Counted from the stretch's first letter, positions 9,928 to 61,809 are shown. The stretch: DNA of 64,000 bases from Patescibacteria group bacterium (GCA_022710645.1 JAKLGL010000001.1:100152-164151); one strand, 5' to 3'. Notes: generated from the letters alone by a model not told the origin. A program made the numbers and translations.

Positions 9928-11034
9928 CTATTCATTTTTACTCAAGTTTAAAATCATACCGACCGCCACAAGAGAGATTAACATTGCCGAACCGCCGTGA
10001 GAAACAAAAGGTAAAGGAACTCCGGTAAGTGGCATCAAACCAATCATGGCGCCTATATTGATAATGGATTGACAAAAAAACCAAGCAGTTACTCCGACTA
10101 CCGCATACTTATCAAATTCATCTTCGCAATTTTTGGCTATTTTCAAACCTCGAGTAGCAATGAGAAAAATCAAAAAAATCAAAGCAGTAGAAAAAATAAA
10201 ACCCATTTCTTCGGCAATTACCGCGTAAACCGAATCAGCATTAACTTCCGGAAGATACTGATATTTTTGACGAGAATGACCGAAACCCAAACCCCAAAAA
10301 CCTCCTGAACCGACAGCTAAAAAGGCTTGATTGACGTGATAACCTATTCCTTGCGGGTCAAGTTCCGGATGCATAAAAATGTTCAATCTTTCCATGCGAT
10401 AAGGTTTAACCGCTACCATAACTCCAAAAACAGTAATTCCTAACAATCCCATAATTATCAAATAACTCCAAGGTAGTTTAGCGACAAATAACATAAAAAA
10501 AGCGATAACACCCAAAATCAACATCGTTCCCAAATCCGGTTGTAACAAAACCATACCCAAAGGTATGGCGATAAAAATCAAAACCGGCAATAAACCGTTT
10601 TGCCAATCTTTGATATTTCGATGCGGATCCGAAAGCATGTCGGCCAAAAGCATGATTAAACCAAGCTTCATAAATTCTCCCGGTTGAAAACTAAAACCGA
10701 AAATTTGCACCCAGCTGCTGGCTCCGTTAATAACCAAGGATGTCGAAGGTAAAAAAGCCAATACTAACAAAAAAAGACCAAATCCGTAAGCCGGCCATGC
10801 AAAACGACGATACCATTCACTTTTAACTTTTAAAGCAATAAAAAAAAGAAGTAGACCCGGTAAAATCCCGTAAAACAATTGTCGTTTCAAATAAAAATAA
10901 GAATCGTTGAATTTGATATATCCAAGGGGCGCGGAAGCTGAAGCTAACATAGCTAAACCAAACAACATTAAAATAGTTACATAAATAAAATAATTCCAAT
11001 CGACACTCTTTTTATCAAATTCTCCGTTTTTCAT
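9928..11034 (-). CDS. FtsW/RodA/SpoVE-family peptidoglycan glycosyltransferase (SEDS)
   Basis: Polytopic protein ending PLPFVSHGGSAMLISLVAVGMILN, with the characteristic SEDS C-terminus. Confidence 0.85.
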   Translation of the reverse strand: MKNGEFDKKSVDWNYFIYVTILMLFGLAMLASASAPLGYIKFNDSYFYLKRQLFYGILPGLLLFFIALKVKSEWYRRFAWPAYGFGLFLLVLAFLPSTSLVINGASSWVQIFGFSFQPGEFMKLGLIMLLADMLSDPHRNIKDWQNGLLPVLIFIAIPLGMVLLQPDLGTMLILGVIAFFMLFVAKLPWSYLIIMGLLGITVFGVMVAVKPYRMERLNIFMHPELDPQGIGYHVNQAFLAVGSGGFWGLGFGHSRQKYQYLPEVNADSVYAVIAEEMGFIFSTALIFLIFLIATRGLKIAKNCEDEFDKYAVVGVTAWFFCQSIINIGAMIGLMPLTGVPLPFVSHGGSAMLISLVAVGMILNLSKNE

Positions 11035-11035: not shown

Positions 11036-11389
11036 TCAACTATTTAAAGACACAATAAACGAAACAGCTATAAACATAAAAATTTGCCAAACACCGCCGA
11101 AAAACATTATTGTTCTGGAAAGCACTTTATCTTTTGTATACAAAAATAAAGAAAAGAAATAATTAAAAATAAAAACCCCGACAATTCCGGCAAAAAAATA
11201 CCATAAATCTTTCGTATCACCCAACCTGTCAACTCCAAAAATAATATTGTAGTGCAAAAATAATCTTTCCAGATTCCAATCTATCCGACCAAAAATATAA
11301 CCGGAAGCCAACGCGGCAAAAATAAAAGATATTACCAAACTATAAAAAATAAAACGATCTTTAAAATGAGATTTAATTAAAACAAACAT
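11036..11389 (-). CDS. Hypothetical small polytopic membrane protein
   Basis: 117 aa with three hydrophobic helices. Tightly packed between SEDS and the Clp-like gene. Confidence 0.45.
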   Translation of the reverse strand: MFVLIKSHFKDRFIFYSLVISFIFAALASGYIFGRIDWNLERLFLHYNIIFGVDRLGDTKDLWYFFAGIVGVFIFNYFFSLFLYTKDKVLSRTIMFFGGVWQIFMFIAVSFIVSLNS

Positions 11390-11392: not shown

Positions 11393-14155
11393 TTATAAAA
11401 TTATCATTTCTCCTTTATGGGTTAACTTTATTTTACTGCCTCGAACTATTTTACCGCTCAAAATAAAATCTGCCAATTTATTTTCCACTTTTTCTTGAAC
11501 AGCGCGACGCATGGGTCTGGCGCCAAATTCGGGATCAAATCCGATTTCCGCCAAAAATTCCAAAGCAAACTCATCAAAAGAAAATTCTATACCTTTCACT
11601 TCCAAATCTTTGGCCAAACGAACAAGCATCAAACCGGCGATTTTTTTCAAATCTTCTTTTTGCAGCTCTTTAAACAATATTATACCGTCAAAGCGATTGA
11701 TAAATTCCGGACGAAAATATTGCTTCAATTCTCCACGAATTAATTTTTCTTTTATAATCTCCGAAGAAACTTTTTCTTTTTGGGCTTGAGAAACATAAGC
11801 TGTTCCAGCATTACTGGTGGCAATAATTATAGAATTGGTAAAATCAATTGTTTTACCCGTACTGTCGGTCAGACGTCCATCATCAAAAACTTGCAAAAAT
11901 AAATTTAATACATCCTTATCAGCTTTTTCTATCTCATCAAGCAAAATCAAAGAAAAAGGATTTCGTCTGACGTTTTCCGTCAAAATACCGGAACCTTTTT
12001 GTCCCGCTGCACCTATAAGCCTGACGATGCTTTGACTGTCTTGGTATTCACTCATATCCAAACGAATCATCTTTTTTTCTCCGCCGAAATAAACTTCCGC
12101 TATTGTTTTTGCCAATTCGGTTTTACCAACCCCCGTATTTCCCAAAAAAAGAAAAGCGGCAATCGGCCTGTTTTGCGAGCGAATTTCCGCACGAGCGCGA
12201 CGCAACGCAAACGCAATCGCTTCTACGGCTTCATCTTGCCCGATAACTCTTTTATGCATTTCCGTTTCCAATCTCATCAACCGTGCGCCTTCTTGAGCGC
12301 TCACCGAAGACACCGGAACTCCCGTCTTGTCGGAAATTATTTTAGCCACTTCTTCCGCTGTTACCAAAGAATTGACACCTTTGTTGTTTTTGGTAAAAGC
12401 AGCAGTTTCAACCACCACTTCCAGAGCACTGCCGGGTAATAACATATCATGTAAAAACCTATGGCTGTATTTCACAGCTTTTTCCAAAGCGTCATAAGAA
12501 AAAAATACAGCATGTTTATGTTCTATGAAACCTATTTTAGCTTCAATCACTTGTATGGCTTGATCTTCAGTCATTTCCGGAACATCAACTTTGGTAAAAA
12601 CGTTTCCCAAAGCCGTACCACTGAACGTTTTGGCGTATTCTTCCGGTGTTGTGGTGGCTATAGTCAAAAATCTGCTTTTGGACAAATTTTCAGCTAACGC
12701 TCCGGCCGCATCCAAACTGCTGGCATTGCCAGAACTAACACCAAAAAGTTCATGTATATTATGAATACATAATATAATATTGCCAGCCTTAGCTATTTCA
12801 TAAAAGATATTATTTATTCTTTCCACAGCTCCCGACGGTGTGGTTCCAGAAAGTAAAGATGATATCTTCAAACGAACCAATCTTTTATCTTGTAAAACTT
12901 TTGGTACATCGTCTCCCGACATTTTTTGCGCCAAACCTTCCAAAATACTCATTTTCCCGGTTCCGTTTTCACCGACCAAAACGGTATTTCCCTGTCCCCC
13001 TTCAACCACTCTAAATATTTCTTCCGTTTCTTTTTCACGCGCCAAACAAGGATCATAATGATTGTATCGAGCCAATATGGTCATGTCTTCGCTGAAATTA
13101 TTCAGATAAGGAGTGGCTACCGCAGTCATAGCTTTATCAAGTCCGTATTTTGATTTACCCGCGCCGACTTTGGCATATTTGATATATTGTCTATACAATC
13201 TTTCTCTTATACGCGCCCACATAATGACATTTTTTATTTTAGAAGCTTCAATACCCAAATCAAATAAAAATTCTTGGATTTTCGGAGTAAAGAAAATAGC
13301 GGCCGATAAAAGTTCCACTACACTGACATAATCTTGGTGATTTTCATAAGCTTCTTCGTAAGCTAAAAACAAAATTTGAAAAACATCTCTATCTGGTAGA
13401 GGAAATATTCCGGATTTTTCGCTTTTAAACAATAACTCGTCAGAAATTTTTTTACGCAAAAAATCCGCAGGGTATCCCAAACGAATAAACACATTTGCGA
13501 TACGATTGGAGGAAAGCAAGGTATAGAAAAGATGCAAAGGGGTCACTTCTCTGTGTCCTAAAACACGAGCTTCCTTAAATGTGTTTATCACTGACCATAC
13601 CGCTTCATCGGTAAATGTTTCTTCAATATTTAATTTTTGACGACGAGAAATCTTTATCATTTCCGACCAAGGTAACATAGAGGTGTTTTCAGACGATTCA
13701 AAATCTTGAATATAATCGTGTTTTTCCACATTTTTATAATGTTTTTTTTCTCTAATGACTCTGGACCAAAGATAAATAACTGTCAGAAATCCTAACCAAA
13801 AAAGTAATTTTTGAAAATCAGAAATTTGCGAAAAAAACAAAACGAAATAATCAGGACCCCGCAATAAATACGCAAATAATCCTTGTTGATAAACCGAGAG
13901 ACCGGCCCAAATCCAAAAATTCAACCATAACAAAATCAAAATCAACCTTCGTCCGCGATTCCACCATAAACGAGCTTGTAAAAGTGAAAGATGATAATAA
14001 GTCAAAGGAAATTTCCAAAACAGCAAAATTTTACGAGGTTTATGAGCCACACTCATACCTCTGCAAGCAAAACAGCGACGTTTACCGTTTTCTCCAGTTT
14101 GCGAACATTTATCGCAATAAGACAAAGGTAAAATTTTATTTTTTTTAAATTCCAT
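11393..14155 (-). CDS. Membrane-anchored Clp-family AAA+ ATPase (N-terminal zinc ribbon, TM block, Clp-N, degenerate D1, canonical D2)
   Basis: Zinc ribbon CDKC...CFAC, then hydrophobic helices, then a Clp-N repeat region. D1 Walker A is GENGTGKMS and Walker B is ILCIHNIHEL, so acidic residues are lacking. D2 has FLFLGNTGVGKT, LILLDEIEKA, ATSNAG and GARPMRRA. Confidence 0.8.
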   Translation of the reverse strand: MEFKKNKILPLSYCDKCSQTGENGKRRCFACRGMSVAHKPRKILLFWKFPLTYYHLSLLQARLWWNRGRRLILILLWLNFWIWAGLSVYQQGLFAYLLRGPDYFVLFFSQISDFQKLLFWLGFLTVIYLWSRVIREKKHYKNVEKHDYIQDFESSENTSMLPWSEMIKISRRQKLNIEETFTDEAVWSVINTFKEARVLGHREVTPLHLFYTLLSSNRIANVFIRLGYPADFLRKKISDELLFKSEKSGIFPLPDRDVFQILFLAYEEAYENHQDYVSVVELLSAAIFFTPKIQEFLFDLGIEASKIKNVIMWARIRERLYRQYIKYAKVGAGKSKYGLDKAMTAVATPYLNNFSEDMTILARYNHYDPCLAREKETEEIFRVVEGGQGNTVLVGENGTGKMSILEGLAQKMSGDDVPKVLQDKRLVRLKISSLLSGTTPSGAVERINNIFYEIAKAGNIILCIHNIHELFGVSSGNASSLDAAGALAENLSKSRFLTIATTTPEEYAKTFSGTALGNVFTKVDVPEMTEDQAIQVIEAKIGFIEHKHAVFFSYDALEKAVKYSHRFLHDMLLPGSALEVVVETAAFTKNNKGVNSLVTAEEVAKIISDKTGVPVSSVSAQEGARLMRLETEMHKRVIGQDEAVEAIAFALRRARAEIRSQNRPIAAFLFLGNTGVGKTELAKTIAEVYFGGEKKMIRLDMSEYQDSQSIVRLIGAAGQKGSGILTENVRRNPFSLILLDEIEKADKDVLNLFLQVFDDGRLTDSTGKTIDFTNSIIIATSNAGTAYVSQAQKEKVSSEIIKEKLIRGELKQYFRPEFINRFDGIILFKELQKEDLKKIAGLMLVRLAKDLEVKGIEFSFDEFALEFLAEIGFDPEFGARPMRRAVQEKVENKLADFILSGKIVRGSKIKLTHKGEMIIL

Positions 14156-14158: not shown

Positions 14159-14605
14159 CTACGCTTTAATTGATAAAAAACCGTAAATAGTGAAAATCGG
14201 TAGAGCCAACCAAAATAAAAATAAACAAAAACAAATAATTATCCAAATAAATAAAGCTAAAAATCTCACAATCGTTTGAAGAAGACGCATAAAAAAACTG
14301 ATAATTCTGCCTTCCCAGTCATATTGTCCATACATGGGAACAAAAATATTCCTCAACCATAAACCCGGAGCCAGATAATCATTTCCTGTCGACATTTTTT
14401 CAAAACACCACAACCAAGAACGAAAAGCGCCTCGGGTATACCACCACAAAGGGAAATATAAAAAATCCAAAAATGTTTCCGCTAACAGTCTTGGTAAAAC
14501 CAAAATAAACATAGATTTAAAAAAATTAAGCCGAACTTTTATCGACTTATATTTTACCATAAAAACAAAGAAACCGCCAAACTCTTTGGCGGTCTTGAAA
14601 AACAA
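14159..14605 (-). CDS. Hypothetical membrane protein
   Basis: 148 aa, hydrophobic and Trp-rich. Confidence 0.45.
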   Translation of the reverse strand: MFFKTAKEFGGFFVFMVKYKSIKVRLNFFKSMFILVLPRLLAETFLDFLYFPLWWYTRGAFRSWLWCFEKMSTGNDYLAPGLWLRNIFVPMYGQYDWEGRIISFFMRLLQTIVRFLALFIWIIICFCLFLFWLALPIFTIYGFLSIKA

Positions 14606-14611
14606 AAGATT

Positions 14612-14995
14612 TTAACGAGAATTTACTGCTACGGACGTGACCGGAATGGCTAAATATTTCAATCGAGGAGTATTTACCATAGACAAACTTTCAACCCTGC
14701 TCTTTAACGAAGCCAAAGAATTCACCTCAGCTATTTGAGCTTCTATTTTTTGTTGTTCAAAACTGATTTCTTCTATGTTTCTTTCCAATTTTTTCAATTC
14801 ATAACCGGTACCGGAAGCGGCGGCAATTTGCAAAACAAAAGCTACAACAAGTATTAAGTTAACCGCCACCAAACACAAACGACCACGAACACCGAATAAC
14901 CAACCCGGCATACGTAGAAAAAAAACGGTTGATTCTCGGATTTCGTTAAGAAAATAATTTGTTTTGTTTTTAAAACCGACAATTTTATCGATCAT
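14612..14995 (-). CDS. ftsL: Cell division protein FtsL-like (single TM plus coiled coil)
   Basis: Immediately downstream of rsmH with a 4-nt overlap. One TM helix followed by a heptad-like segment (ELKKLERNIEEISFEQQKIEAQIAEVNSLASL). Confidence 0.55.
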   Translation of the reverse strand: MIDKIVGFKNKTNYFLNEIRESTVFFLRMPGWLFGVRGRLCLVAVNLILVVAFVLQIAAASGTGYELKKLERNIEEISFEQQKIEAQIAEVNSLASLKSRVESLSMVNTPRLKYLAIPVTSVAVNSR

Positions 14996-15915
14996 ATTTT
15001 TTCAATTACGCGCAATTTCGCGCTACGCGCTCTGGGGTTGATTTTGATTTCCTCCTCGGAAGCGCTAATGGGTTTTTTAGTGATTATTTTCGATTTGGCA
15101 TAAGGCAAACTCTGAAAAAATTGTTTGACTATCCTATCTTCCAAAGAATGAAAACTGATTACCGCCAGCCTTCCTCCTTTGTTCAATAATTCAAAAGCTA
15201 AAGGTAAGGTATTTTTCAAAATTTCCAATTCATTATTTACAGCAATCCGCAAGGCCTGAAAAACTTTGGTAGCCGGATGTATCCCGCCGATCCAAGGAAT
15301 TTCTTTATCAGTACGCAATTTTTTTCTATAAACTTTCAAGATTACTTCTGTCAATTCGCGGCTAGTTGCAATACGCTTGATTTTTCTTTCGGACAAAATT
15401 TCTTCGGCGATTTCTCTACTCAATTCTTCTTCGCCATAATTTTTAAAAATCCAAATCAAGTCTTCTAAACTGTATTCATTGATTATAAGTGAGGCGTCGA
15501 CACAATTTTCACTGCCAAAAACTTGACACCTGTTGTCATAACGCATATTTAGCGGTTCATCTTTATCAAAGCTAAAACCTCGGCTACGTTCGGCAAATTG
15601 CGGACTACTCCAACCGAGATCAAACAAAATGGCATCAACCGAAACAAAATCGTTTTCTTTGGCAATGTTTTCCAAATTGGAGAAATTTTCTCTGGCAAAT
15701 ACTATCTGGTCTTCAAAACGATATAAAAACCTTTTGGCACGTAAAATGGATTCCGGATCAGCATCAAGCCCGAGCAATTTTCCGCGCAAACCAATATGTT
15801 CCAAAATAGCTTCACTGTGTCCGCCATCTCCCAAAGTACAATCAATAACTTTAGCGCCTTTTTTCAAATTTAAATTTTCAATAACTTCGTTTAATAAAAC
15901 CGGAGTATGTCGCAT
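14992..15915 (-). CDS. rsmH: 16S rRNA (cytosine1402-N4)-methyltransferase RsmH/MraW
   Basis: MRHTPVLLNEV..DCTLGDGGHS..GLDADPE. Canonical mraZ-rsmH order. Confidence 0.9.
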   Translation of the reverse strand: MRHTPVLLNEVIENLNLKKGAKVIDCTLGDGGHSEAILEHIGLRGKLLGLDADPESILRAKRFLYRFEDQIVFARENFSNLENIAKENDFVSVDAILFDLGWSSPQFAERSRGFSFDKDEPLNMRYDNRCQVFGSENCVDASLIINEYSLEDLIWIFKNYGEEELSREIAEEILSERKIKRIATSRELTEVILKVYRKKLRTDKEIPWIGGIHPATKVFQALRIAVNNELEILKNTLPLAFELLNKGGRLAVISFHSLEDRIVKQFFQSLPYAKSKIITKKPISASEEEIKINPRARSAKLRVIEKI

Positions 15916-15916
15916 A

Positions 15917-16348
15917 TTAAACTCCTAAATCATTTAATTTTTCCGCTATTTCGTTGCTTTCTCTTTCAGTTTTGACTTTATAAGCATTCCAAGCATCCGC
16001 ATCCCAAATTTCAGCTCGATTATACAAACCGGCGATTATTAAACTTTTTTTCAAACCGGCAAAATTTCTCAAATACTCAGGGATAACCACGCGACCCTGT
16101 TTATCTATTTCAGCTTCAAAAGCCCCGGATAACATATGTCGAGCGAACGCACGGCTATTGGCTTGAGAAAATGGCAATGTCGCCAACTTTTCTGCCAGTT
16201 TATTCCATTCGTTTTTGGTATACAAAAACAAACAGTTATCCAAACCTTTGGTAATAACCGCTCCCTCCTCAAGTTCGCGTCGAAATTTTATCGGGATAGC
16301 TAAACGAAACTTGTCGTCTAAATTGTGGTTGTATTCGCCTACCATCAT
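15917..16348 (-). CDS. mraZ: Transcriptional regulator MraZ
   Basis: Two DxxxR SpoVT/AbrB-like halves (NLDDKFRLAIPIKFRREL and EIDKQGRVVIPEYLR). Confidence 0.9.
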   Translation of the reverse strand: MMVGEYNHNLDDKFRLAIPIKFRRELEEGAVITKGLDNCLFLYTKNEWNKLAEKLATLPFSQANSRAFARHMLSGAFEAEIDKQGRVVIPEYLRNFAGLKKSLIIAGLYNRAEIWDADAWNAYKVKTERESNEIAEKLNDLGV

Positions 16349-16617: not shown

Positions 16618-17145
16618 TTATGAAAAAAGACCATCAACATCATCCTGCGTCTCTTTCACAATTTTAAAAAGATCTATAAATTCACGGAAGCTTTCCGTGA
16701 TTAATTTATGAACTTTTTCCCCTTCTTTTATTAACGGTGTTTCCTGCAGAATTTTCAATTCTTCATTGGAAATCTTTTTCCTTTTAATGCTTTGCAACAT
16801 ATTTTCTTCAAATTGCAATTTGATTTCCGGAAAAGCAAGGAGGTTGGAAACATCTTTACCGGCAAAAGGATCCCTCATGATAACTACCGGACCCTCTTTT
16901 TTCAGCCTCTTGATTTTTGAAGGGTCTATGGGGCTCCCTTCTTCCCCGATGAGAGTTGGGACAGTTAAAAGAGGAACAACCGTCCTTTTTGATCCTTCTT
17001 TTTGAATTACGATATATCTCATATCAAGATATGGCGTCAGCTCAAAGTTCATAGGATCTACAGTTTTTCCCATAATTGCCCTAAGGGAAATACCCAGGTC
17101 GGAAAAAAGTGTAACAATTTCAACTACCTTAAACTTTTTCTTCAT
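16618..17145 (-). CDS. Hypothetical 175-aa cytoplasmic protein (cassette b)
   Basis: RBS GGAGAAA before the ATG at 17145. Family promoter about 50 nt upstream and own terminator. No recognisable domain. Confidence 0.65.
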   Translation of the reverse strand: MKKKFKVVEIVTLFSDLGISLRAIMGKTVDPMNFELTPYLDMRYIVIQKEGSKRTVVPLLTVPTLIGEEGSPIDPSKIKRLKKEGPVVIMRDPFAGKDVSNLLAFPEIKLQFEENMLQSIKRKKISNEELKILQETPLIKEGEKVHKLITESFREFIDLFKIVKETQDDVDGLFS

Positions 17146-18797: not shown

Positions 18798-19478
18798 ATG
18801 CCATTTATGCGTCGAAAAGACCTTATAAAAGATGTCAAAATAGTAGAACCACCCATTCACGAACTCAACAAAGGCTCGCACGGATTGCGTAAGTCTTGTT
18901 TTTTCGGTTGCAGTTTTTTTCTTTTATTAATCATCGGTTTGCTTATAGGTGTTAAATTTTATATTGGTTCGGGACCGAAAACCGTTACTGTTTTACCTTT
19001 GAACTTTCCTCTTGAAGACATACCTATTTATAACAAGGACAAAGTTACAGACATGACCTTTATCTCCGGAGAATACAAGAGTCGCCGAGTTGAATTGGCG
19101 GCAATTTTCCCAAAAATAGTTTTATTACCTTTTTTGTTCGGCGGAGATAATTCGGAAATAGATCAAAATGAAAAAACCGATTTTAAAAATCTTTTTCAAA
19201 CCATCGCCGCTCCGGTAACCGACAAAAAAGACAACTTCAAATTGGAATGGCAAGATGTGGATAATAACTACAACACTTTTGTAAATTATTACAAAAACGA
19301 ATTGCAACGTCGCGGTTTTGTCATTGACGCTTCAAGTGATGGGGCGGAATACAAAAAAATCGATTTTTCTCGTCATGACGGTTATGCCGGAACCATTTAC
19401 GCGGAGAATAAAAGCGACCAAAGAAATAAAACAACTTACGCTTTTTTGATGTTAAACATGCCTCCGTTAAAAAAATAA
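18798..19478 (+). CDS. Hypothetical membrane-anchored protein
   Basis: One N-terminal TM helix (CFFGCSFFLLLIIGLLIGVKFYI) then a soluble domain. Immediately upstream of murJ. Confidence 0.5.
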   Translation: MPFMRRKDLIKDVKIVEPPIHELNKGSHGLRKSCFFGCSFFLLLIIGLLIGVKFYIGSGPKTVTVLPLNFPLEDIPIYNKDKVTDMTFISGEYKSRRVELAAIFPKIVLLPFLFGGDNSEIDQNEKTDFKNLFQTIAAPVTDKKDNFKLEWQDVDNNYNTFVNYYKNELQRRGFVIDASSDGAEYKKIDFSRHDGYAGTIYAENKSDQRNKTTYAFLMLNMPPLKK

Positions 19479-24951: not shown

Positions 24952-25416
24952 TTAATAACCCTCCACATCGGATATAAATTTATACTTGGTCAATGAGAAG
25001 GCATAGCCTCGAATTAAATCCCGCATTCCACGGTATTCTTCATTATAACCGGAGTTAAACGAGATTCGGTTAGCCCACCACCAATAGTAGAAACCCTCCA
25101 CCACTACGAATTCTCGCCATTCGCTCACTTTGAATTGCACGAGTTTACAGTTGAATCCCTTACCGGCAGTCGTCACACATACACGTACAGGTCGTGTATC
25201 AATCTTGGCGACTTTTACCCAAGGAGCAGTAAGATTCCATCCTTGAGTATCAGTATTCATCTCACCTGTGACAAAATTGCGCATTATGCCGACATGGGAC
25301 ACATCGGTGTGGTGAATGCAAAAGATGTAGGTCAGAAACATAATAGCCGCAAAAACAACGCCTGAGACAGCCAGTACATTCATCCCCAGGGGTATTCCCA
25401 ATCTTTTTATTTTCAT
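24952..25416 (-). CDS. Hypothetical membrane-anchored protein, paralog 2 (cassette c, distal gene)
   Basis: N-terminal TM helix. Shares with the upstream gene the pattern G-W..NPPF/APWV-K...DTRP....C.......NCKLV.F. RBS GGGAGAAAA. 11-nt gap to the upstream gene. Confidence 0.65.
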   Translation of the reverse strand: MKIKRLGIPLGMNVLAVSGVVFAAIMFLTYIFCIHHTDVSHVGIMRNFVTGEMNTDTQGWNLTAPWVKVAKIDTRPVRVCVTTAGKGFNCKLVQFKVSEWREFVVVEGFYYWWWANRISFNSGYNEEYRGMRDLIRGYAFSLTKYKFISDVEGY

Positions 25417-25427
25417 GAATTTTCTCC

Positions 25428-25979
25428 CTACGGTACTATAGGCATATTCTTAGCAGTCGCATCCACGGTCTGTTGAGGACCAACATTCAGCGGTATCTTC
25501 GTCGGTTCTGAAGTTGCAGTACTGTTTATGTTCACCATGTTCGCCGAACCCGGCATGAAGGTGAGAAAAGGGTAAGTAGTACCACTGCCGTCAAAGGCGT
25601 AGCTCTTCATAATATCCCGCAAACTTCCTGTTGCCTCACCAAAGATGTCATAATCTCCGCGACCATGCCATGACAAAAATGTCTGGAGTCCTTCGGGGTT
25701 GAACTTGACCAGCTTACAGTTCAGTGTCCTTTGATTGGCACTGATACAAAGCTGCATAGGCCGCAAGTCAATTGTGTGGATCTTGGTGACGAAAGGCGGA
25801 TTGCTGACCCACCCCGTGCGCTCAATGGGCTCAACCTTTCCGGTCAGGGTGTCGAACTTGTAGCCCAACTCGTAATTATCAATGTAGTTGAGCCAACCAA
25901 AGACCCAAACAATCAAGGAAAAAATAGTCAACACGACAACAATCCCGAAACCGATTCCGATTTTCTGCGATAAACTCAT
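25428..25979 (-). CDS. Hypothetical membrane-anchored protein, paralog 1 (cassette c, proximal gene)
   Basis: Start set at the ATG at 25979 (MSLSQK...), preceded by GGAGGG; the track start is a TTG. One TM helix, then a domain with a conserved Cx9C pair. Confidence 0.65.
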   Translation of the reverse strand: MSLSQKIGIGFGIVVVLTIFSLIVWVFGWLNYIDNYELGYKFDTLTGKVEPIERTGWVSNPPFVTKIHTIDLRPMQLCISANQRTLNCKLVKFNPEGLQTFLSWHGRGDYDIFGEATGSLRDIMKSYAFDGSGTTYPFLTFMPGSANMVNINSTATSEPTKIPLNVGPQQTVDATAKNMPIVP

Positions 25980-26112
25980 GATTCCCTCCTTCAAAAACCG
26001 TGAAACACCTCACGGCCAGGCATTGGACAACTTTGTCCTATAAAACTTCTACTATCTTGAAATATAATAATTTGTCTTTTAGTTTTAAAGAACTTTAAAC
26101 AACTAACAACAT

Positions 26113-26141
26113 ATTATAGCACATTTTGGCACTTTTGTCAA
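26113..26141 (-). promoter_or_regulatory. Family promoter module, copy c (perfect TTGACA-17-TGcTATAAT, plus extended upstream block)
   Basis: Minus strand reads TTGACAAAAGTGCCAAAATGTGCTATAAT. A further ~45 nt upstream (26142-26190: CCCTCCTTCG...GGGCAAGGTAGTC) is shared with copy f. Confidence 0.75.
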
Positions 26142-26186
26142 CCCTCCTTCGCCCATTCGGGCTACGAGCGGGCAAGGTAGTCAAAC

Positions 26187-26204
26187 TTGGCTAATATAAG
26201 CCAA
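26187..26204. promoter_or_regulatory. Imperfect palindrome TTGGCTAATATAAGCCAA upstream of promoter copy c
   Basis: Arms TTGGCT/AGCCAA. A perfect version of this palindrome occurs upstream of copy d. Confidence 0.4.
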
Positions 26205-26214
26205 AATCAAATTC

Positions 26215-26241
26215 AAAAACCGCCCAAAAAGGCGGTTTTTT
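26215..26241. terminator. Bidirectional terminator after the ytxH-like gene
   Basis: aaaaaCCGCCCaaaaaGGCGGtttttt. Confidence 0.6.
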
Positions 26242-26267
26242 GCTTTACTGCTTTACTGCTTTTAGGC

Positions 26268-26582
26268 TTATTTACTCTTTTTCAATTCTTTTTCCAACTT
26301 ACACCATCTTTTCTGCAATTCTTTGACAAGCATTATTTTCATTTCAGCAGCCATTTCTTTCTTGGCCGCGATTTCTTCCACCGCGCGCTCCACGAGCGCT
26401 TCGTACATTTCTTTGGTCGGACCTTCCAATTTTTTGATATTTTCCTTGAGTTCGTTGTACATCGGTTCGGCATAAGCCATCAATTTGGCTTTCATTTCTC
26501 TGCCTTTAGGTGTGACATTGAGCCACATGAGACCGGCGCCGAGTAAACCGCCCAAGAACAAACCTTTTTTGAAATTTCCCAT
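26268..26582 (-). CDS. YtxH-like (DUF948) membrane-associated protein
   Basis: Glycine-zipper N-terminus (GLFLGGLLGAGLMWL) followed by a charged coiled-coil; 104 aa. Confidence 0.6.
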   Translation of the reverse strand: MGNFKKGLFLGGLLGAGLMWLNVTPKGREMKAKLMAYAEPMYNELKENIKKLEGPTKEMYEALVERAVEEIAAKKEMAAEMKIMLVKELQKRWCKLEKELKKSK

Positions 26583-26654
26583 ACAATTTTTATTTAAGAA
26601 TTAAGATTTTAGATTTTTGATTTAATCTCGCATTCTATCAACTTTATAAACTTA

Positions 26655-27482
26655 TTAACTTCCACATTCCGCTGTTGTTCCTGTGCCTGTTCCTGCGCCA
26701 AAACTCGGAGCGGCCGAAGCGGTACTGAGCGTCTGTCCGCATTCTTCAGGTTGTTCTTCAAAAGACGCGCAAATAGCCTGTTTTACAGCTTCCGGACTGC
26801 GGGCTACTTGGACTTGGGAACCATTAATAACCAAAGTCGGAGAACCCTGCACACCATATTTTTCGTTCAGATCTTTATGAACATTGTATAAAGGATAATA
26901 TCCGGAAAGCCAAGAAGCTTTATCGTTGTAAGCGGCGGTAGTACCGAATTTTTTATCTGTTACAGCAATACAACTACTCAATTTACTTTCATTGACTTTA
27001 ACTTCTTTCAAACAGGAAGCCGAGTCCCCGCTCACAGTAAAACATTTCAAATACGGAATAAATTTATCTTCTTGTTCGTTTTCCAAGCAATATTGCAAAT
27101 TGTTTTCGTCAATTTCTTTTTTATCATGCATGATATAAGAAACGAACTTAATGCTGATATCGGCTTTTTTACCGAACAATTCCATGACCGGCAAAAGAGC
27201 TTTTTGCATTTGTAAACCGTAAGGACAATAAGACATCACGAACAATTCCACTGCCGGTTTGTCGGTTTTTACCACATCCGAATTTTGAACATTTTGTGTT
27301 TGATCCGTTTTTACAGCTTCCTTTTTCACCGGATTGTTGACATAAACTATTTTTCCTTGCGCGGCCAAAATAACAAAAATCAGACAAGCGGCAGCACATA
27401 AAACTCCGATACCTGACAAAACTCCGACCAAAACCGAAGTTCTCGGACTAAGTAATTCAAAAAAACTTTTTTGGTTTTCCAT
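26655..27482 (-). CDS. Membrane-anchored thioredoxin-fold protein (DsbA-like, with a CPYG motif rather than CxxC)
   Basis: N-terminal TM helix, VMSYCPYGLQMQKAL active-site-like motif, several further Cys, and a C-terminal Gly/Thr-rich tail (GAGTGTGTTAECGS). Confidence 0.45.
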   Translation of the reverse strand: MENQKSFFELLSPRTSVLVGVLSGIGVLCAAACLIFVILAAQGKIVYVNNPVKKEAVKTDQTQNVQNSDVVKTDKPAVELFVMSYCPYGLQMQKALLPVMELFGKKADISIKFVSYIMHDKKEIDENNLQYCLENEQEDKFIPYLKCFTVSGDSASCLKEVKVNESKLSSCIAVTDKKFGTTAAYNDKASWLSGYYPLYNVHKDLNEKYGVQGSPTLVINGSQVQVARSPEAVKQAICASFEEQPEECGQTLSTASAAPSFGAGTGTGTTAECGS

Positions 27483-27494
27483 AAAATATATAGA

Positions 27495-28136
27495 TTATTC
27501 TCCGTTTAATAAACGGTACAATTCTCCATACGCCAAAGCGTTTTCGATTTCCGGACCATTCTTTTCCGGTCCGCGGAATTGTCCCGCCAAAGACGGATTA
27601 TTTTCTTTAATAAAATTAATAAAATCGTTTATCGGCACAAACTTTTTTTCATCCCGAAGCAGAGAAAAACCGCCGCAGTCTTTGAAAACACGTTCATTTT
27701 CAGCGCAAACAAAATCAGCCAGGTTGAAAAGTTTACGTAAATACCAACTATTATACAGCCAAATAATTATAGTAAAAAAATCGACATATGGCAAGTTTTG
27801 ATACACTGTTATTACTATTTTCTTTTGAGGATTTTTTTCTTTATATACCGCTAGTTTTTTACCCATCCCCATAAACGGAACATGCAAATGGATGATGTCG
27901 GCTTCAGCCAATTTTTCATCAACATCTTCTTGGTTTTGTATTTTTTCAAAATTTATTTTTCCTTTGGTGATTTGATCAATTTCTGTTTCCAAACGTTTTC
28001 CGACAACACCGTATTGCAAAGTAAAAACGTAATTTTCAAAACCCAAATCCCCTAAATTTTCAACCAAAGCAAAAGCTTGTTTTCTGATATCACCAAAATA
28101 TTCAAAAGCCGAAGGGATAATATGTAAAATCTTCAT
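27495..28136 (-). CDS. GT4 N-terminal-domain-like protein (truncated glycosyltransferase fold)
   Basis: MKILHIIPSAF..FGD... begins like a GT4/GT-B N-domain. 213 aa and lacks the C-terminal sugar-donor domain. Confidence 0.4.
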   Translation of the reverse strand: MKILHIIPSAFEYFGDIRKQAFALVENLGDLGFENYVFTLQYGVVGKRLETEIDQITKGKINFEKIQNQEDVDEKLAEADIIHLHVPFMGMGKKLAVYKEKNPQKKIVITVYQNLPYVDFFTIIIWLYNSWYLRKLFNLADFVCAENERVFKDCGGFSLLRDEKKFVPINDFINFIKENNPSLAGQFRGPEKNGPEIENALAYGELYRLLNGE

Positions 28137-45004: not shown

Positions 45005-45949
45005 TTATCTTGAAGACACGATTTGCACTTCGGGCTCCAAGCTCACTCCATATTTATCATACACCTTTTTTTGAACTTCTTCAACAACCTGTAAAACTTG
45101 TTCTTGGGTAGCGGAACCGAAATTAACCAAAAAATTACCATGCTCTTGCGAAACTCCAGCATCTCCTATTCGAAAGCCTTTTAAACCGCAATTTTCAATA
45201 AGCCAACCTGCCGGAACCGTACCTCGAGAAATAAAAAGATCTGGTAATTTTTCTTTTTCTTGCGGCCAATTTTCCAATCTTATATTTTTAAAGAAACTAC
45301 CGGCTGAAGGCCATTTGGGGAAATTTTTACGATTTCCCAAATTTTTAGCGACAACAGAAGACACCTCTTGTCTGGAACTTTTCTCCAGTTTAAGAGTTGT
45401 TTTCAATACAACCATATTTTTATGCGATTTAAAAATACTTTCCCGATATCCAAAACCGCATTCTGCTTTGGAATATTCTTTAACTTCCCCATCAACCCAA
45501 ACGAATACTTTTTGTATACAATCAGCCATACTTTTCCCCATTGAACCGGCATTTCCACGAACAGCCCCACCTAAAGTACCGGGAATACCTACTGCCCATT
45601 CCAAACCGCTCAATTCATTTTTAACAGCTAAATTAACAACTAAAGACAACGGAACTCCGGCCTCAACTTCTACAAATTCTTCTTTTAACTTCAAGCCCGA
45701 CGTGGCTATTTTTATCACAACTCCGCTAAAATTCTGGTCTATCCATAGCAAATTCGATCCTCCGCCTAAAATAAAAAATTCAACACCTTCCGAATTTAAA
45801 AAATCCAAAAGTTGTATCAACAGTTCAGTTTCTTTAACTTCAATAAAAAATTCCGCCCATCCGCCGATTTGAAAAGTGGTGTGTTTTGATAAGGGTATTT
45901 TGGTCTTTACTTCCCCGTATTTTTTGAGCTCTTTATATAACTCGTTCAT
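45005..45949 (-). CDS. murB: UDP-N-acetylenolpyruvoylglucosamine reductase
   Basis: FAD-binding PCMH domain (TTFQIGGWAEF, GGGSNLL) and a MurB C-terminal domain. Start set at the internal ATG (MNELYK...), since the 37-codon extension in the track overlaps the divergent gene. Confidence 0.85.
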   Translation of the reverse strand: MNELYKELKKYGEVKTKIPLSKHTTFQIGGWAEFFIEVKETELLIQLLDFLNSEGVEFFILGGGSNLLWIDQNFSGVVIKIATSGLKLKEEFVEVEAGVPLSLVVNLAVKNELSGLEWAVGIPGTLGGAVRGNAGSMGKSMADCIQKVFVWVDGEVKEYSKAECGFGYRESIFKSHKNMVVLKTTLKLEKSSRQEVSSVVAKNLGNRKNFPKWPSAGSFFKNIRLENWPQEKEKLPDLFISRGTVPAGWLIENCGLKGFRIGDAGVSQEHGNFLVNFGSATQEQVLQVVEEVQKKVYDKYGVSLEPEVQIVSSR

Positions 45950-46001
45950 AACTTGAATTTTTTTTAAAATTAGCGTAATATAATCATTATAAAAGAAAAC
46001 T

Positions 46002-47228: not shown

Positions 47229-47258
47229 TCGAAGTTTTGAAATAAAAAATAAATTTTT

Positions 47259-48065
47259 ATGCTTTCTCCCAAAGCCGAAAAACTGATAGAACAATACCTC
47301 CATCTACCTTTTGAAGATATCTTAAATGTGCGTTGTCCTTATTTTATCAATTCTCGCGCCAAACAAAGGGCTCAATTACGCGTACTTATCGGCAAAGGAC
47401 TGCCGCAAGAAATAGTGGAGGAAGCAAAAATCATTTCAATACAATATCACCACGGTTTATTTAACTGTGACGGAAAATGTTTGATTTCCGAATTAACAAA
47501 GACGGAGACTGACAATCCTCCGGAAGAATGCATCAAAAAATTCTTGGTTGATAACGGTCTTGGAATTGATTGTTCCGGTTTTGTCAGTCATGTACTACGC
47601 GAACATTTCCAAGAAACGAGAAAGATAGATATCGCCAATAAATTTTATTTTGTCCCATTGAAAAATTATTTTCGATATTTGATCTGCTGGCTCCGACCCA
47701 TAGAAAATATGTCAGTTAAAAAATATGCCTCCGATCAAAATACAAAAAAAATAGAATCTGTAAAAGAAATCTCTCCCGGAGATTTACTCATAATGCTCGA
47801 AACGGGTCCGCAAAAAAATCGCAATCATATCGTTTTGGTTACAGATAATGACGGTAAAATTATAAAATACGCTCACGCTCGCGCTTGGAGTATGGAAGGA
47901 AAATACGATCACGGCGTAGCTCGCGGCGAAATCCGTATAATCAACCCGACAGAATCTCTTCTAAAACAAGAATGGGTGGAATTTGGCACTGTTAATGAAA
48001 ACAACGAAACCTACTTGGAAGCCAAAAACGCCAAAATATTTGAAGTAAGAAGAATTAAATTCTAA
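47259..48065 (+). CDS. NlpC/P60-like papain-fold cysteine peptidase domain protein
   Basis: GIDCSGFVSHVL (catalytic Cys context) and NHIVLV (His). No signal peptide. Confidence 0.45.
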   Translation: MLSPKAEKLIEQYLHLPFEDILNVRCPYFINSRAKQRAQLRVLIGKGLPQEIVEEAKIISIQYHHGLFNCDGKCLISELTKTETDNPPEECIKKFLVDNGLGIDCSGFVSHVLREHFQETRKIDIANKFYFVPLKNYFRYLICWLRPIENMSVKKYASDQNTKKIESVKEISPGDLLIMLETGPQKNRNHIVLVTDNDGKIIKYAHARAWSMEGKYDHGVARGEIRIINPTESLLKQEWVEFGTVNENNETYLEAKNAKIFEVRRIKF

Positions 48066-48080
48066 TGCTTTTCAAATTTT

Positions 48081-48115
48081 AAATACTTAACACTAAATAC
48101 TAGATACTAAATACT
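48081..48115. repeat. Four spaced copies of (A)AATACT in the mraY upstream region
   Basis: aaatacttaacactaaatactagatactaaatact. Confidence 0.4.
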
Positions 48116-48118
48116 TTT

Positions 48119-61622: not shown

Positions 61623-61809
61623 CATCACATCCTCCACGCGACATCAGTCGCTTAAGCAGTTATTAATTCCCGAAATACCAAAAATATATTTTTCTAAACC
61701 TTATATTTTCAAAGAACTTTTGCTCTCCTTTAGTTCAAAATCAAGACAAATAAAAAATCGGCTCTCTCCTTGATTTTGAGCTAAAAAAGAACATAAAATT
61801 TAACATAGT

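What the first reader, a model, noticed from the sequence alone, without database searches (positions are those of the whole stretch)
11393..14155. Membrane-anchored Clp/Hsp100-type AAA+ ATPase with an N-terminal zinc ribbon and an apparently dead first nucleotide-binding domain
The 920-aa protein starts with a C4 zinc ribbon (CDKC...CFAC), followed by several hydrophobic helices, a Clp-N-like repeat domain, and two AAA+ modules. D1 has Walker A GENGTGKMS (Met replaces the Mg-coordinating Thr/Ser) and no acidic Walker B pair (ILCIHNIHEL). D2 is fully canonical (GNTGVGKT, LLDEIE, sensor-1 ATSNAG, sensor-2 GARPMRRA). No IGF/IGL ClpP-docking loop is apparent. Membrane tethering of a ClpB/ClpC-like unfoldase is unusual, and flanking small membrane proteins (11036-11389, 14159-14605) may be partners.
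Basis: seen in the sequence. Interest (0 to 1): 0.6.

Follow-up and report, generated by a model that had tools for sequence, protein, structure and literature searches.

The report
Membrane-anchored, tyrosine-less Clp ATPase in division operon
A candidate-phyla-radiation bacterium (Magasanikbacteria) carries, inside its cell-division gene cluster, a membrane-tethered relative of the Clp/Hsp100 protein-unfolding machines that has lost most parts needed to thread proteins, is always paired with a small unknown membrane protein, and so probably does a different, undescribed job at the membrane.

Summary
ORF 11393-14155 (-) is an intact 920-aa protein. Its layout is Zn finger, two-helix membrane hairpin, Clp_N, degenerate D1 and D2, with no M-domain and no ClpP-docking loop. 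The fusion is not a mis-join: more than 100 full-length homologues share it, and 163 species-level genomes encode a relative.

- D2 keeps every ATPase motif but has a 4-residue deletion that removes the GYVG pore-loop tyrosine. D1 also lacks its KYR tyrosine and both arginine fingers. Neither ring has the aromatic paddles used for threading.
- The upstream small membrane protein (true start 14512, 117 aa) is an obligate partner, adjacent in 69 of 70 loci and also outside dcw clusters. The downstream 117-aa protein is subclade-specific and travels with ftsW.
- The pair sits in the order mraZ-rsmH-ftsL-partner-Clp-(mraY or ftsW) in most Magasanikbacteria-type genomes.

Best reading: a Patescibacteria-specific two-gene module. 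A Hsp100 has been converted into a ClpP-independent, probably non-threading, D2-driven ATPase switch or remodeller on the cytoplasmic face of the membrane, linked to division and cell-wall synthesis. The function is inferred, not shown. I class it as a new variant of a known kind; no description was found in the searched literature.

The parts
11393..14155 (-). Gene for the 920-aa membrane-anchored Clp/Hsp100-like protein (stop codon included)
   Evidence: ORF. Pfam and NCBIfam hits. ClpC alignment. Identical to the deposited protein P0001. AF2 mean pLDDT 81.9. Fold matches ClpC and ClpB.
14048..14122 (-). N-terminal C4 zinc module (residues 12-36, CDKC...CFAC), of the DnaJ-type CxxCxGxG kind in the family
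   Evidence: The four Cys are invariant. PF00684 DnaJ_CXXCXGXG matches 14 of 24 family N-termini, best E 3.3e-4. It is not detectable in the window protein itself.
13949..14035 (-). Conserved basic juxtamembrane helix (residues 41-69; family motif W.YPLTRY.LAL..GRRI.NKIR)
   Evidence: Alignment A1. AF2 helix from residue 53. Median K+R of 12 in residues 1-69.
13748..13948 (-). Two-helix membrane hairpin: TM1 about 70-90, a poorly conserved 24-residue outer loop, TM2 about 115-136
   Evidence: Hydropathy. Positive-inside count and mean Kyte-Doolittle hydropathy of 1.45 and 1.43. AF2 helices 53-90 and 113-136. Loop conservation 0.29, against 0.59-0.62 for the helices.
13157..13627 (-). Clp_N double-repeat domain (residues 177-333)
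   Evidence: Pfam Clp_N 24.9 bits against a cut-off of 20.7. Aligns to the ClpC N-domain from residue 192. Eight AF2 helices.
13061..13156 (-). Highly conserved N-to-D1 linker (residues 334-365; family motif G[ML]DKAMTAVATPYLN.FS.D.T)
   Evidence: Column conservation 0.81, second only to the D2 large domain (0.86). pLDDT below 50 at residues 338-346. Used as a family-specific search pattern.
12368..13060 (-). D1 AAA+ module (residues 366-596), degenerate: Walker A GENGTGKMS (12947-12973), pore loop SGTTPSGAVER without Tyr (12818-12850), Walker B ILCIHNIHEL (12746-12775), arginine fingers replaced (ALGNVF)
   Evidence: ClpC alignment. Family column counts. Coordinates checked by translation. 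Conservation 0.73.
11396..12358 (-). D2 AAA+ module and D2-small domain (residues 600-920): Walker A GNTGVGKT (12119-12142), shortened Tyr-less pore loop LIGAAGQKGSGILTE (11975-12019), Walker B LILLDEIE (11927-11950), Arg finger R821 (11693-11695), sensor-2 GARPMRR (11504-11524)
   Evidence: Aromatic residue in the D2 loop in 2 of 117 sequences, and in the D1 loop in 0 of 117.
14159..14512 (-). Partner gene: 117-aa membrane protein of unknown family (motif YFP.WWYT.G ... LAPGLWL.NIFVPMYGQYD.QGRIISF). The 148-aa TTG ORF reaching 14605 is probably an over-extension.
   Evidence: 56-57% identical in other loci. Adjacent upstream in 69 of 70 loci. Also present upstream in distant, non-dcw loci, E 1e-34 to 1e-37. 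388 clusters, all 'hypothetical', no Pfam match. AF2 pLDDT 91, two long helices.
14571..14595 (-). Stem-loop followed by a T-run in the ftsL-partner gap, then an extended -10-like TGgTAAAAT. Possible terminator or attenuator plus internal promoter.
   Evidence: These are consensus matches only.
11036..11389 (-). 117-aa three-helix membrane protein (motif FLHYNIIFGVD). Subclade-specific and travels with ftsW.
   Evidence: Hydropathy. 35% identical in L001. Present in 9 of 74 loci, always immediately before ftsW. No Pfam match.
9928..11034 (-). ftsW/rodA (SEDS) gene, immediately downstream
   Evidence: Pfam FTSW_RODA_SPOVE, E 2.9e-96.
14612..16348 (-). Upstream dcw genes: mraZ (15917-16348), rsmH (14992-15915), ftsL-like (14612-14995)
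   Evidence: ORFs. NCBIfam FtsL_Actino E 4.8e-8, 32.8 bits, below the 55-bit cut-off. Pfam MraZ and Methyltransf_5 on the orthologous genes in L001 and L002. Synteny in 59 of 64 loci.

Best explanation
The finding is one half of a Patescibacteria-specific two-gene module. The module pairs a 117-aa helical membrane protein with a Hsp100/Clp-derived double-ring AAA+ protein. A two-helix hairpin holds the Clp-like protein at the cytoplasmic face of the membrane, and it carries a cytoplasmic DnaJ-type zinc finger.

**Shown:**
- The architecture.
- Family-wide loss of D1 catalytic residues, of both pore-loop tyrosines, of the M-domain and of the ClpP loop.
- Strict retention of all D2 ATPase residues, including the trans-acting arginine finger.
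- Obligate adjacency of the partner gene.
- Placement between ftsL and mraY or ftsW in most species.

**Inferred:**
- The protein forms a hexamer whose N-domain/D1 face looks at the membrane.
- D1 is a structural ring that may bind nucleotide but does not hydrolyse it.
- D2 is the only motor.
- ATP turnover in D2 drives a conformational switch or local remodelling of membrane-proximal clients, rather than processive threading, degradation or disaggregation. Candidate clients are the partner and divisome or lipid-II-pathway proteins such as FtsL, FtsW and MraY.
For: **Architecture and motifs.**

**Pore loops.** There is no aromatic residue in the D1 loop (0 of 117) or the D2 loop (2 of 117), and a ClpP tripeptide occurs in 1 of 117. 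Tyrosines of the KYR and GYVG loops are critical for ClpA function (PMC8666677).

**D2 is kept as an ATPase.** D2 Walker A and B, sensor-1, Arg finger and sensor-2 are invariant.

**D1 is kept, though degenerate.** Its conservation is 0.73, which indicates purifying selection.

**Topology.** N-in/C-in.

**Breadth.**
- More than 100 full-length homologues.
- 182 clusters at 50% identity carry the N-terminal module.
- 163 species genomes encode a relative.

**Gene neighbourhood.**
- Partner adjacent in 69 of 70 loci.
- mraZ-rsmH-ftsL upstream in 59 of 64.
- mraY downstream in 60 of 74, or dn117 (the downstream 117-aa gene, 11036-11389) plus ftsW in 9 of 74.
- The partner is still adjacent in distant loci outside dcw.

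**Co-evolution hint.** Partner distances track the Clp N-terminal half best: r 0.68 and 0.67, partial r 0.50 and 0.48 after controlling for RsmH. For D2 the partial r is 0.25, and for MraZ 0.08.

**Graded decay.** Some distant members keep APPGY, APPGF or APPGH in D2 and GKT in D1.

**Gene spacing.** Gaps of 1-3 nt within partner-Clp-dn117-ftsW.
Against: - There is no experimental datum.
- Gene-order conservation within one clade may be partly inherited rather than functional. Three distant members show a weaker dcw link: 2 of 3 lie outside dcw.
- A hydrophobic residue (I/V/M/L at position 724, Tyr in distant members) sits at the base of the shortened D2 loop and might still contact a substrate. 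Threading is therefore not excluded.
- Hexamer formation and nucleotide binding by D1 are inferred from motifs only.
- I could not examine the rest of the genome for ClpP, ClpX, ClpB, FtsI, FtsQ or FtsB.
- The mirror-tree correlations have no significance test.
Confidence: 0.5

Rival explanations
1. It is a membrane-protein dislocase or unfoldase that still threads polypeptides through its pore, like FtsH without a protease or like Msp1. It would extract or unfold membrane or divisome proteins, with the partner as adaptor or substrate.
For: The N-terminal anchor places the N-domain/D1 entry face toward the membrane, as in FtsH (topology). D2 is a fully equipped ATPase. A Clp_N domain for client or adaptor binding is retained. 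A hydrophobic or Tyr residue lies at the base of the D2 loop. Less-decayed relatives keep APPGY.
Against: Both pore-1 loops lack aromatic residues family-wide, and the D2 loop is 4 residues shorter. Tyr-to-Ala changes in either ClpA ring eliminate or hinder degradation of all substrates tested (PMC8666677).
Confidence: 0.25
2. It is an essentially static scaffold or pseudo-enzyme. The AAA+ body only organises a membrane complex, and ATP hydrolysis is irrelevant.
For: D1 is dead. Genuine relatives of about 600 aa lacking D2 exist, for example the 606-aa gene next to mraY in L004.
Against: All D2 catalytic residues, including the inter-subunit arginine finger, are invariant in 117 sequences, and D2 is the most conserved domain at 0.86. 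The D2-less forms are a separate, divergent subfamily. The two complete genes whose contigs were read (P0151 in L004, P0160 in L005) have no partner homologue upstream.
Confidence: 0.1
3. It is a conventional ClpC/ClpA-type unfoldase that feeds ClpP, as the database name 'ATP-dependent Clp protease ATP-binding subunit' implies, and is merely tethered to the membrane.
For: Best sequence and fold matches are ClpC, with E 1.6e-131 by sequence and 7.5e-56 by fold.
Against: There is no [ILVM]G[FLM] docking loop, because the loop is deleted. There are no pore tyrosines, and D1 is dead. Scores are far below the ClpA and ClpB equivalog cut-offs: 490 against 993, and 535 against 1232.
Confidence: 0.03
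4. It is a ClpB/ClpG-like stand-alone disaggregase acting on aggregated membrane proteins.
For: The highest NCBIfam score is to ClpB, and ClpG and ClpK models also hit.
Against: There is no M-domain. There are no pore tyrosines. The ClpB, ClpG and ClpK matches come as two separate stretches, the best-scoring one being D2, with scores far below cut-off. The gene sits in a division operon, not a stress locus.
Confidence: 0.03

Closest known systems
ClpC / ClpA (class I Clp/Hsp100 unfoldases)
   Same: Clp_N double repeat, two AAA+ modules, AAA_lid_9 and the D2-small domain. Best sequence and fold matches are ClpC. It lacks a long M-domain, as ClpA does: a single-stretch match to the ClpA model covers 190-911.
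   Different: - Membrane hairpin and zinc finger at the N-terminus.
- D1 Walker A and B and arginine fingers are degenerate.
- The KYR and GYVG tyrosines are absent.
- The IGL/VGF ClpP loop is absent.
- The short ClpC M-domain is absent.
- It has an obligate small membrane partner and a dcw-operon context.
ClpE (and ClpX) zinc-finger-bearing Clp ATPases
   Same: An N-terminal C4 zinc module precedes the ATPase body. The ClpE structure 29hb matches D1 and D2 at E 1.5e-116.
   Different: The zinc module here is of the DnaJ CxxCxGxG type, with no match to the ClpX-type finger model even at E up to 10. Transmembrane helices and a Clp_N domain follow it. ClpE has an M-domain, active rings and a ClpP loop (established knowledge, not tested here).
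Torsin ATPases with LAP1/LULL1
   Same: A Clp/Hsp100-related AAA+ protein that is membrane-associated, lacks aromatic pore loops and works with membrane-anchored cofactors (PMC5425593). This is the nearest functional analogy for a non-threading, membrane-bound Clp relative.
   Different: Torsins are eukaryotic, single-ring and luminal. They lack their own arginine finger, which the cofactor supplies. Here D2 keeps R821, a dead D1 ring is fused in cis, and the partner is a small helical protein, not a degenerate AAA+ fold.
FtsH / Msp1 (membrane-anchored AAA+ machines)
   Same: An N-terminal transmembrane anchor that would place the ring's entry face against the cytoplasmic side of the membrane. 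FtsH is also tied historically to division phenotypes (established knowledge).
   Different: There is no peptidase domain. The protein is a double ring of the Clp type, with no aromatic pore loop.
Inactive-ring double AAA+ proteins (NSF D2, PEX1/PEX6 D1)
   Same: One ring is degenerate and presumably structural, and the other is the motor (established knowledge, an analogy only).
   Different: In those proteins the active ring keeps aromatic pore loops and threads substrate. Here the active ring has lost them too.

Membership tests
Clp/Hsp100 class I (double-ring) AAA+ superfamily | Clp_N domain followed by two AAA+ modules with AAA_lid_9 and ClpB_D2-small domains | tested here: met
   Pfam hits above cut-off. 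Full-length fold match to ClpC and ClpB, E as low as 7.5e-56.
ClpB (TIGR03346 equivalog) | Score at or above the curated equivalog cut-off | tested here: not met
   534.8 bits against a cut-off of 1232.1, matched in two separate stretches.
ClpB | Long coiled-coil M-domain inserted in the D1 small domain | tested here: not met
   ClpC residues about 402-453 are skipped in the alignment. AF2 shows a helix at 574-592 and the next at 600-611 with no insertion.
ClpA (TIGR02639 equivalog) | Score at or above the curated cut-off | tested here: not met
   490.5 bits against a cut-off of 993.15.
ClpA / ClpC / ClpE / ClpX (ClpP partners) | [ILV]G[FL] ClpP-docking loop between sensor-1 and the arginine finger of the last ring | tested here: not met
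   The loop is shortened relative to ClpC. The tripeptide is present in 1 of 117 family members and absent in the window protein.
Threading Clp/Hsp100 unfoldases in general | Aromatic pore-1 loops (KYR in D1, GYVG in D2) | tested here: not met
   D1 has GTTPSGAVE and D2 has GAAGQKGSG. Aromatic residues occur in 0 of 117 and 2 of 117 sequences. Motif definitions come from PMC8666677.
Threading Clp/Hsp100 unfoldases in general | Catalytically competent D1 (Walker A GK[TS], Walker B DE, arginine fingers) | tested here: not met
   GKM-S (GK[RK][ST] in the family), IHNIHE, and ALGNVF in place of ALERRF.
Active AAA+ ATPase ring (D2) | Walker A GKT, Walker B DE, sensor-1 N, trans arginine finger, sensor-2 GAR | tested here: met
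   All are invariant in 117 sequences. Activity itself is not testable with these tools.
ClpE/ClpX-type zinc-binding domain | Match to the ClpX C4 zinc-finger model | tested here: not met
   No such Pfam hit even at E up to 10. The family instead matches the DnaJ CXXCXGXG model in 14 of 24 members.
FtsH | M41 peptidase domain after the AAA module | tested here: not met
   No peptidase family among the Pfam hits.
Torsin-like (functional analogy only) | Lacks its own arginine finger and depends on a degenerate-AAA+ cofactor | tested here: not met
   R821 is invariant. The partner is a two-helix protein.
dcw (division and cell wall) gene cluster component | Conserved position within mraZ-rsmH-ftsL...mraY/ftsW across species | tested here: met
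   59 of 64 loci upstream, and 69 of 74 downstream (mraY 60, ftsW 9). This is weaker in distant relatives. A functional role in division is not testable here.
Anti-phage defence systems (PADLOC) | Specific match of the module's proteins to a defence-system model | tested here: not met
   Only generic D2 homology to PDC-M37B and DolB. The partner has no hit.

The most novel reading that the evidence does not exclude
In Magasanikbacteria-type Patescibacteria a Hsp100 unfoldase has been rebuilt into a dedicated, non-threading, membrane-anchored ATPase. Together with its 117-aa partner it is a lineage-specific core component of the divisome or lipid-II machinery. It occupies the operon slot where ftsI, murE and murF normally sit, and it couples ATP turnover to activation or turnover of FtsL-FtsW and/or MraY. 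This would be a new way of regulating bacterial cell division in ultra-small cells.
Probability: 0.3. Interest if true: 0.8.

Novelty: new variant of a known kind. Interest (0 to 1): 0.62.

Why it matters
**For AAA+ mechanism.** Clp/Hsp100 proteins are textbook polypeptide-threading motors. This is a large, strongly conserved bacterial family. It keeps one ring as a complete ATPase but has discarded the tyrosine pore loops of both rings, the ClpP loop, the M-domain and D1 catalysis, and it has gained a membrane anchor, a DnaJ-like zinc finger and an obligate membrane partner. That makes it a natural experiment on what a Clp ATPase can do without threading. It is the bacterial counterpart of the Torsin puzzle.

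**For CPR biology.** The module's fixed place in the mraZ-rsmH-ftsL-...-mraY/ftsW operon of many Patescibacteria offers a concrete, testable candidate for a lineage-specific division or cell-wall factor. The division machinery of these organisms is poorly understood.

**For annotation.** The current name, 'ATP-dependent Clp protease ATP-binding subunit', is probably misleading.

Tried and rejected
- **Mis-joined ORF or frameshift.** Rejected. The same 920-aa architecture occurs in more than 100 homologues, and the deposited protein is identical.
- **N-terminal alignment A1 as a genome-scan query.** I used the family-specific region 305-475 instead.
- **afdb50 fold search for the partner.** The library was not available. 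The PDB Foldseek search gave nothing significant. The top hit, Vipp1/PspA at E 3.5, is not evidence for an ESCRT-III relationship.
- **Pfam at E up to 10 on the N-terminal module, the partner and the downstream 117-aa protein.** No family was found.
- **Defence-system reading.** PADLOC gave only generic D2 homology.
- **tRNA and Rfam scans of the window.** Nothing was found.
- **Literature.** Six full-text searches combined Patescibacteria or CPR, dcw, Clp, membrane-anchored, zinc ribbon and pore loop. None found a description of this family. The dcw evolution paper PMC8871954 explicitly left CPR out.
- **Downstream 117-aa protein as a general partner.** Rejected. It occurs in 9 of 74 loci and always with ftsW.
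- **D2-less relatives as proof that ATPase activity is dispensable.** Not accepted. They are a divergent subfamily with variable P-loops, and the two complete genes whose contigs were read have no partner homologue upstream.
- **Census of ClpP, ClpX, ClpB and FtsI in the same genome.** I could not do this, because only 64 kb of the genome and flanks of 10 kb or less are reachable.
Full report
**1. Observation**

The window has 35-39% G+C over most of its length. Its proteins match Candidatus Magasanikbacteria (Patescibacteria/CPR). ORF 11393..14155 on the minus strand is an uninterrupted 920-aa reading frame with an ATG start. The identical 920-aa protein is deposited from a 562,946-bp Magasanikbacteria contig under the name 'ATP-dependent Clp protease ATP-binding subunit' (P0001).

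Pfam finds Clp_N (193-241), AAA_lid_9 (529-596), AAA_2 (663-823) and ClpB_D2-small (831-910). NCBIfam models for ClpB, ClpA, ClpG/K and ClpV all match, but far below their equivalog cut-offs: ClpB 535 against 1232, and ClpA 490 against 993. The ClpA match is one continuous stretch, 190-911.

The best solved relatives are B. subtilis and S. aureus ClpC, with phmmer E 1.6e-131 and Foldseek E 7.5e-56.

**2. Motif check**

- D1 Walker A is GENGTGKMS, against GEPGVGKTA in ClpC.
- D1 Walker B is ILCIHNIHEL, against ILFIDELHTL in ClpC.
- The ClpC M-domain (about 402-453) has no counterpart.
- The ClpP-docking VGF loop region is shortened, with no replacement tripeptide.

- The D1 pore loop is GTTPSGAVE where ClpC has GTKYRGEFE.
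- The D1 arginine fingers are replaced: ALGNVF against ALERRF.
- The D2 pore-1 loop is LIGAAGQKGSGILTE where ClpC has LVGSPPGYVGYDEGGQLTE. This is a four-residue deletion that removes the GYVG tyrosine.

Independently of any alignment, residues 712-727 and 436-446 contain no aromatic residue. D2 is therefore a complete ATPase, but it is not 'fully canonical'. The tyrosines of the KYR (D1) and GYVG (D2) loops are what ClpA uses to engage, unfold and translocate substrates, and Tyr-to-Ala changes in either ring eliminate or hinder degradation of all substrates tested (PMC8666677).

**3. N-terminal module**

- **Zinc site.** C14, C17, C28 and C31 are invariant in every homologue whose N-terminus is present.
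- **Zinc-finger type.** Fourteen of 24 family N-termini match the DnaJ CXXCXGXG zinc-finger model, best E 3.3e-4, with weaker hits to the related BSD2 and Anti-TRAP fingers. The window protein's own copy is too diverged to score.
- **Juxtamembrane helix.** A conserved basic helix follows (W.YPLTRY.LAL..GRRI.NKIR).
- **Membrane helices.** Two hydrophobic helices (about 70-90 and 115-136) are separated by a poorly conserved 24-residue loop.
- **Topology.** Median K+R counts of 12, 1 and 5 in the segments before, between and after the helices give an N-in/C-in hairpin. Both the zinc finger and the AAA+ body are therefore cytoplasmic, and there is no sizeable external domain.
- **Structure prediction.** AlphaFold2 with a 68-sequence alignment gives mean pLDDT 81.9. 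It models short strands in 12-47, helices at 53-90 and 113-136, an eight-helix Clp_N domain, and two AAA+ modules with no coiled-coil insertion.
- **Caveat.** Topology rests on hydropathy and the positive-inside rule. No dedicated predictor was available.

**4. The fusion and the decay are family properties**

A search with residues 1-593 returned at least 120 clusters, nearly all 880-960 aa, covering 92-100% of the query at 45-86% identity. Named members are Magasanikbacteria or Patescibacteria, apart from one record labelled Udaeobacter.

The motif pattern in 117 full-length sequences:

| Feature | Family pattern |
|---|---|
| D1 Walker A | G[DE]xGVGK[RK][ST] (Lys kept; the canonical Thr is replaced) |
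| D1 Walker B | I-[HN]-N-I-H-E |
| D1 pore loop | AGTTPAGAVER |
| D2 pore loop | RLIGAPGEKGTGILTE |

All four are conserved. D2 Walker A, Walker B, sensor-1 N782, arginine finger R821 and sensor-2 GARPMRR are invariant or nearly so.

Aromatic residues occur in the D1 loop in 0 of 117 sequences and in the D2 loop in 2 of 117. A ClpP-type tripeptide occurs in 1 of 117.

Mean column conservation is 0.86 for the D2 large domain, 0.73 for the 'dead' D1, 0.81 for the N-to-D1 linker and 0.64 for Clp_N. The degenerate D1 is therefore under purifying selection and is not decaying.

**5. Wider relatives**

A profile of the first 190 residues, searched against 1.84 billion representatives, found 182 proteins at E up to 1e-3 and 90 at E up to 1e-10. 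The match was at or near the N-terminus in nearly all of them.

Distant full-length members show graded states. Some keep GKT in D1 or an acidic residue in Walker B, and a few keep APPGY, APPGF or APPGH in the D2 loop. None has the D1 tyrosine. D1-tyrosine loss therefore looks ancestral to the membrane-anchored group, and D2-tyrosine loss looks later.

A separate class of about 590-630 aa ends after the D1 lid and lacks D2. At least two are complete genes: the 606-aa Falkowbacteria-type gene followed by mraY (L004) and a 631-aa gene (L005). Their P-loops are variable, and neither has a partner homologue upstream on the contigs read.

**6. Genomic context**

In the window the minus-strand order is:
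- mraZ (15917-16348)
- rsmH (14992-15915)
- ftsL-like (14612-14995)
- a small membrane protein (14159-14512)
- the Clp-like gene
- a 117-aa three-helix membrane protein (11036-11389)
- ftsW (9928-11034)

Gaps of 1-3 nt separate the last four genes.

A scan of one genome per GTDB species found 163 genomes encoding a relative, and 80 loci were analysed. The counts:

| Neighbourhood feature | Loci |
|---|---|
| Small upstream protein directly adjacent | 69 of 70 with room |
| mraZ-rsmH-ftsL upstream | 59 of 64 |
| mraY (usually plus DUF192) downstream | 60 of 74 (48 directly adjacent) |
| 117-aa protein plus ftsW downstream | 9 of 74 |

The downstream 117-aa protein occurs only in those nine loci.

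Large insertions occur at the ftsL/partner junction, for example a 2030-aa FG-GAP protein in L003. No comparable insertion separates the partner from the Clp gene; the largest partner-Clp gap is 219 nt. In the window that ftsL/partner junction carries a stem-loop with a T-run and a -10-like element.

In three distant members the partner is still immediately upstream (E 1e-34 to 1e-37). Two of these loci lie outside any dcw cluster, and one lies before mraY. The invariant unit is therefore the partner-Clp pair. The dcw placement characterises the Magasanikbacteria-type clade.

**7. The partner**

The likely start is the ATG at 14512. That gives 117 aa, matching homologues of 116-119 aa, so the 148-aa TTG ORF is an over-extension.

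It belongs to a family of 388 clusters. All that carry a name are called 'hypothetical', come from Patescibacteria or unclassified bacteria, and have no Pfam domain.

AlphaFold2 gives pLDDT 91 and two long helices (2-47 and 66-116). These are joined by the invariant loop LAPGLWL.NIFVPMYGQYD.QGR, and both ends are hydrophobic. No solved structure matches significantly.

Across 59 species, partner sequence distances correlate best with the Clp N-terminal module and Clp_N:

| Compared with | r | Partial r (controlling for RsmH) |
|---|---|---|
| Clp N-terminal module | 0.68 | 0.50 |
| Clp_N | 0.67 | 0.48 |
| D1 | 0.64 | 0.42 |
| D2 | 0.50 | 0.25 |
| FtsL | 0.56 | 0.27 |
| MraZ | 0.39 | 0.08 |

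This is suggestive of co-evolution but carries no significance test.

**8. Interpretation**

*Shown by sequence.* This is a Clp/Hsp100-fold double-ring protein that cannot be a ClpB (no M-domain), a ClpP partner (no docking loop) or a conventional threading unfoldase (no pore tyrosines, dead D1). It nevertheless retains a complete, oligomer-dependent ATPase site in D2 and is strongly conserved.

*Inferred.*
- A hexamer tethered by six hairpins, with its N-domain/D1 face toward the membrane.
- D1 as a structural ring that may bind nucleotide.
- D2 as the sole motor.
- ATP-driven switching or local remodelling of membrane-proximal clients rather than processive translocation.
- Given the operon, a role in division or peptidoglycan-precursor synthesis.

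The closest functional analogy is Torsin. It is a membrane-associated Clp relative without aromatic pore loops that works with membrane cofactors (PMC5425593). This protein is not a member of that family, because it keeps its own arginine finger and is a double ring.

The main rival is a still-threading membrane dislocase. I cannot exclude it, because a hydrophobic residue (Tyr in distant relatives) sits at the base of the shortened D2 loop.

**9. Novelty and limits**

Six full-text searches found no description of this family or of a Clp-like gene in CPR dcw clusters. The held library is incomplete, so this is absence of evidence only.

I could not inspect the rest of the genome for ClpP, ClpX, ClpB, FtsI or FtsQ/B. 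I could not model complexes, and I could not test any activity.

I class the finding as a new variant of a known kind. The identity and anatomy are well supported. The mechanism is inferred and of moderate confidence.

Noticed in passing
window 14513-14611 (-), stem-loop 14571-14595: The gap of about 100 nt between the ftsL stop and the likely partner start holds a GC-rich stem-loop followed by CTTTGTTTTT, then a TGgTAAAAT -10-like element. This could be a terminator or attenuator plus an internal promoter, splitting mraZ-rsmH-ftsL from partner-Clp-117aa-ftsW. Large insertions occur at this same junction in other species.
   Followed up: partly
window 14159-14605 (-): The mechanical 148-aa TTG ORF, and the 133-aa database call P0290, are probably over-extended. 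Homologues are 116-119 aa and align from the Met at 14512.
   Followed up: yes
L004:401-2221, L005:780-2675 (proteins P0151, P0160): Relatives of about 600 aa carry the same zinc-finger/TM/Clp_N/D1 layout but have no D2 ring at all. One lies directly before mraY in a Falkowbacteria-type contig. Their P-loops are variable, and no partner gene lies upstream.
   Followed up: partly
window 58776-61637 (-): A 953-aa GTG-start ORF has 12 DUF7151 repeats plus collagen triple-helix repeats. It lies in a 58-62 kb stretch of 47-48% G+C, against 35-39% for most of the window. This may be foreign or a compositionally distinct surface protein gene.
   Followed up: no
window 11036-11389 (-): A 117-aa three-helix membrane protein with the invariant motif FLHYNIIFGVD..GD and Y.KDK[VI][LI]SR. 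It has no Pfam family and is found only where ftsW follows the Clp gene (9 loci), so it may be an FtsW-associated factor.
   Followed up: partly
window residues 334-365 of the Clp-like protein (13061-13156): The linker between Clp_N and D1 (G[ML]DKAMTAVATPYLN.FS.D.T) is the most conserved segment outside the D2 large domain (0.81). AlphaFold2 nevertheless models it with pLDDT below 50, so it could be a docking or regulatory element.
   Followed up: no
loci L006-L085 (record titles): Many genome records that carry this Magasanikbacteria-type locus are titled 'uncultured Gammaproteobacteria', and one is titled 'Candidatus Udaeobacter'. The locus content and identity levels suggest these taxonomic labels are placeholders or errors.
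   Followed up: no
window 45005-49252: murB (45005-46060, -) and a second Glycos_transf_4 (MraY/WecA-like) gene (48119-49252, +) lie about 30 kb from the mini-dcw cluster. In this subclade mraY seems to have left the position after the Clp gene that it holds in most relatives.
   Followed up: no
window 16618-17145 (-), 18798-19478 (+), 24952-28136 (-): Several ORFs have no Pfam family (175, 226, 154, 188, 275 and 213 aa). The 226-aa ORF and its neighbours (beta-CASP RNase, MurJ) are syntenic with the dcw cluster in other Magasanikbacteria loci (L001).
   Followed up: no
protein P0204: A 2356-aa protein matched the zinc-finger part of the N-terminal profile in 19 separate stretches. It is a giant array of CxxC...CxxC fingers and is unrelated to the Clp family.
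   Followed up: no
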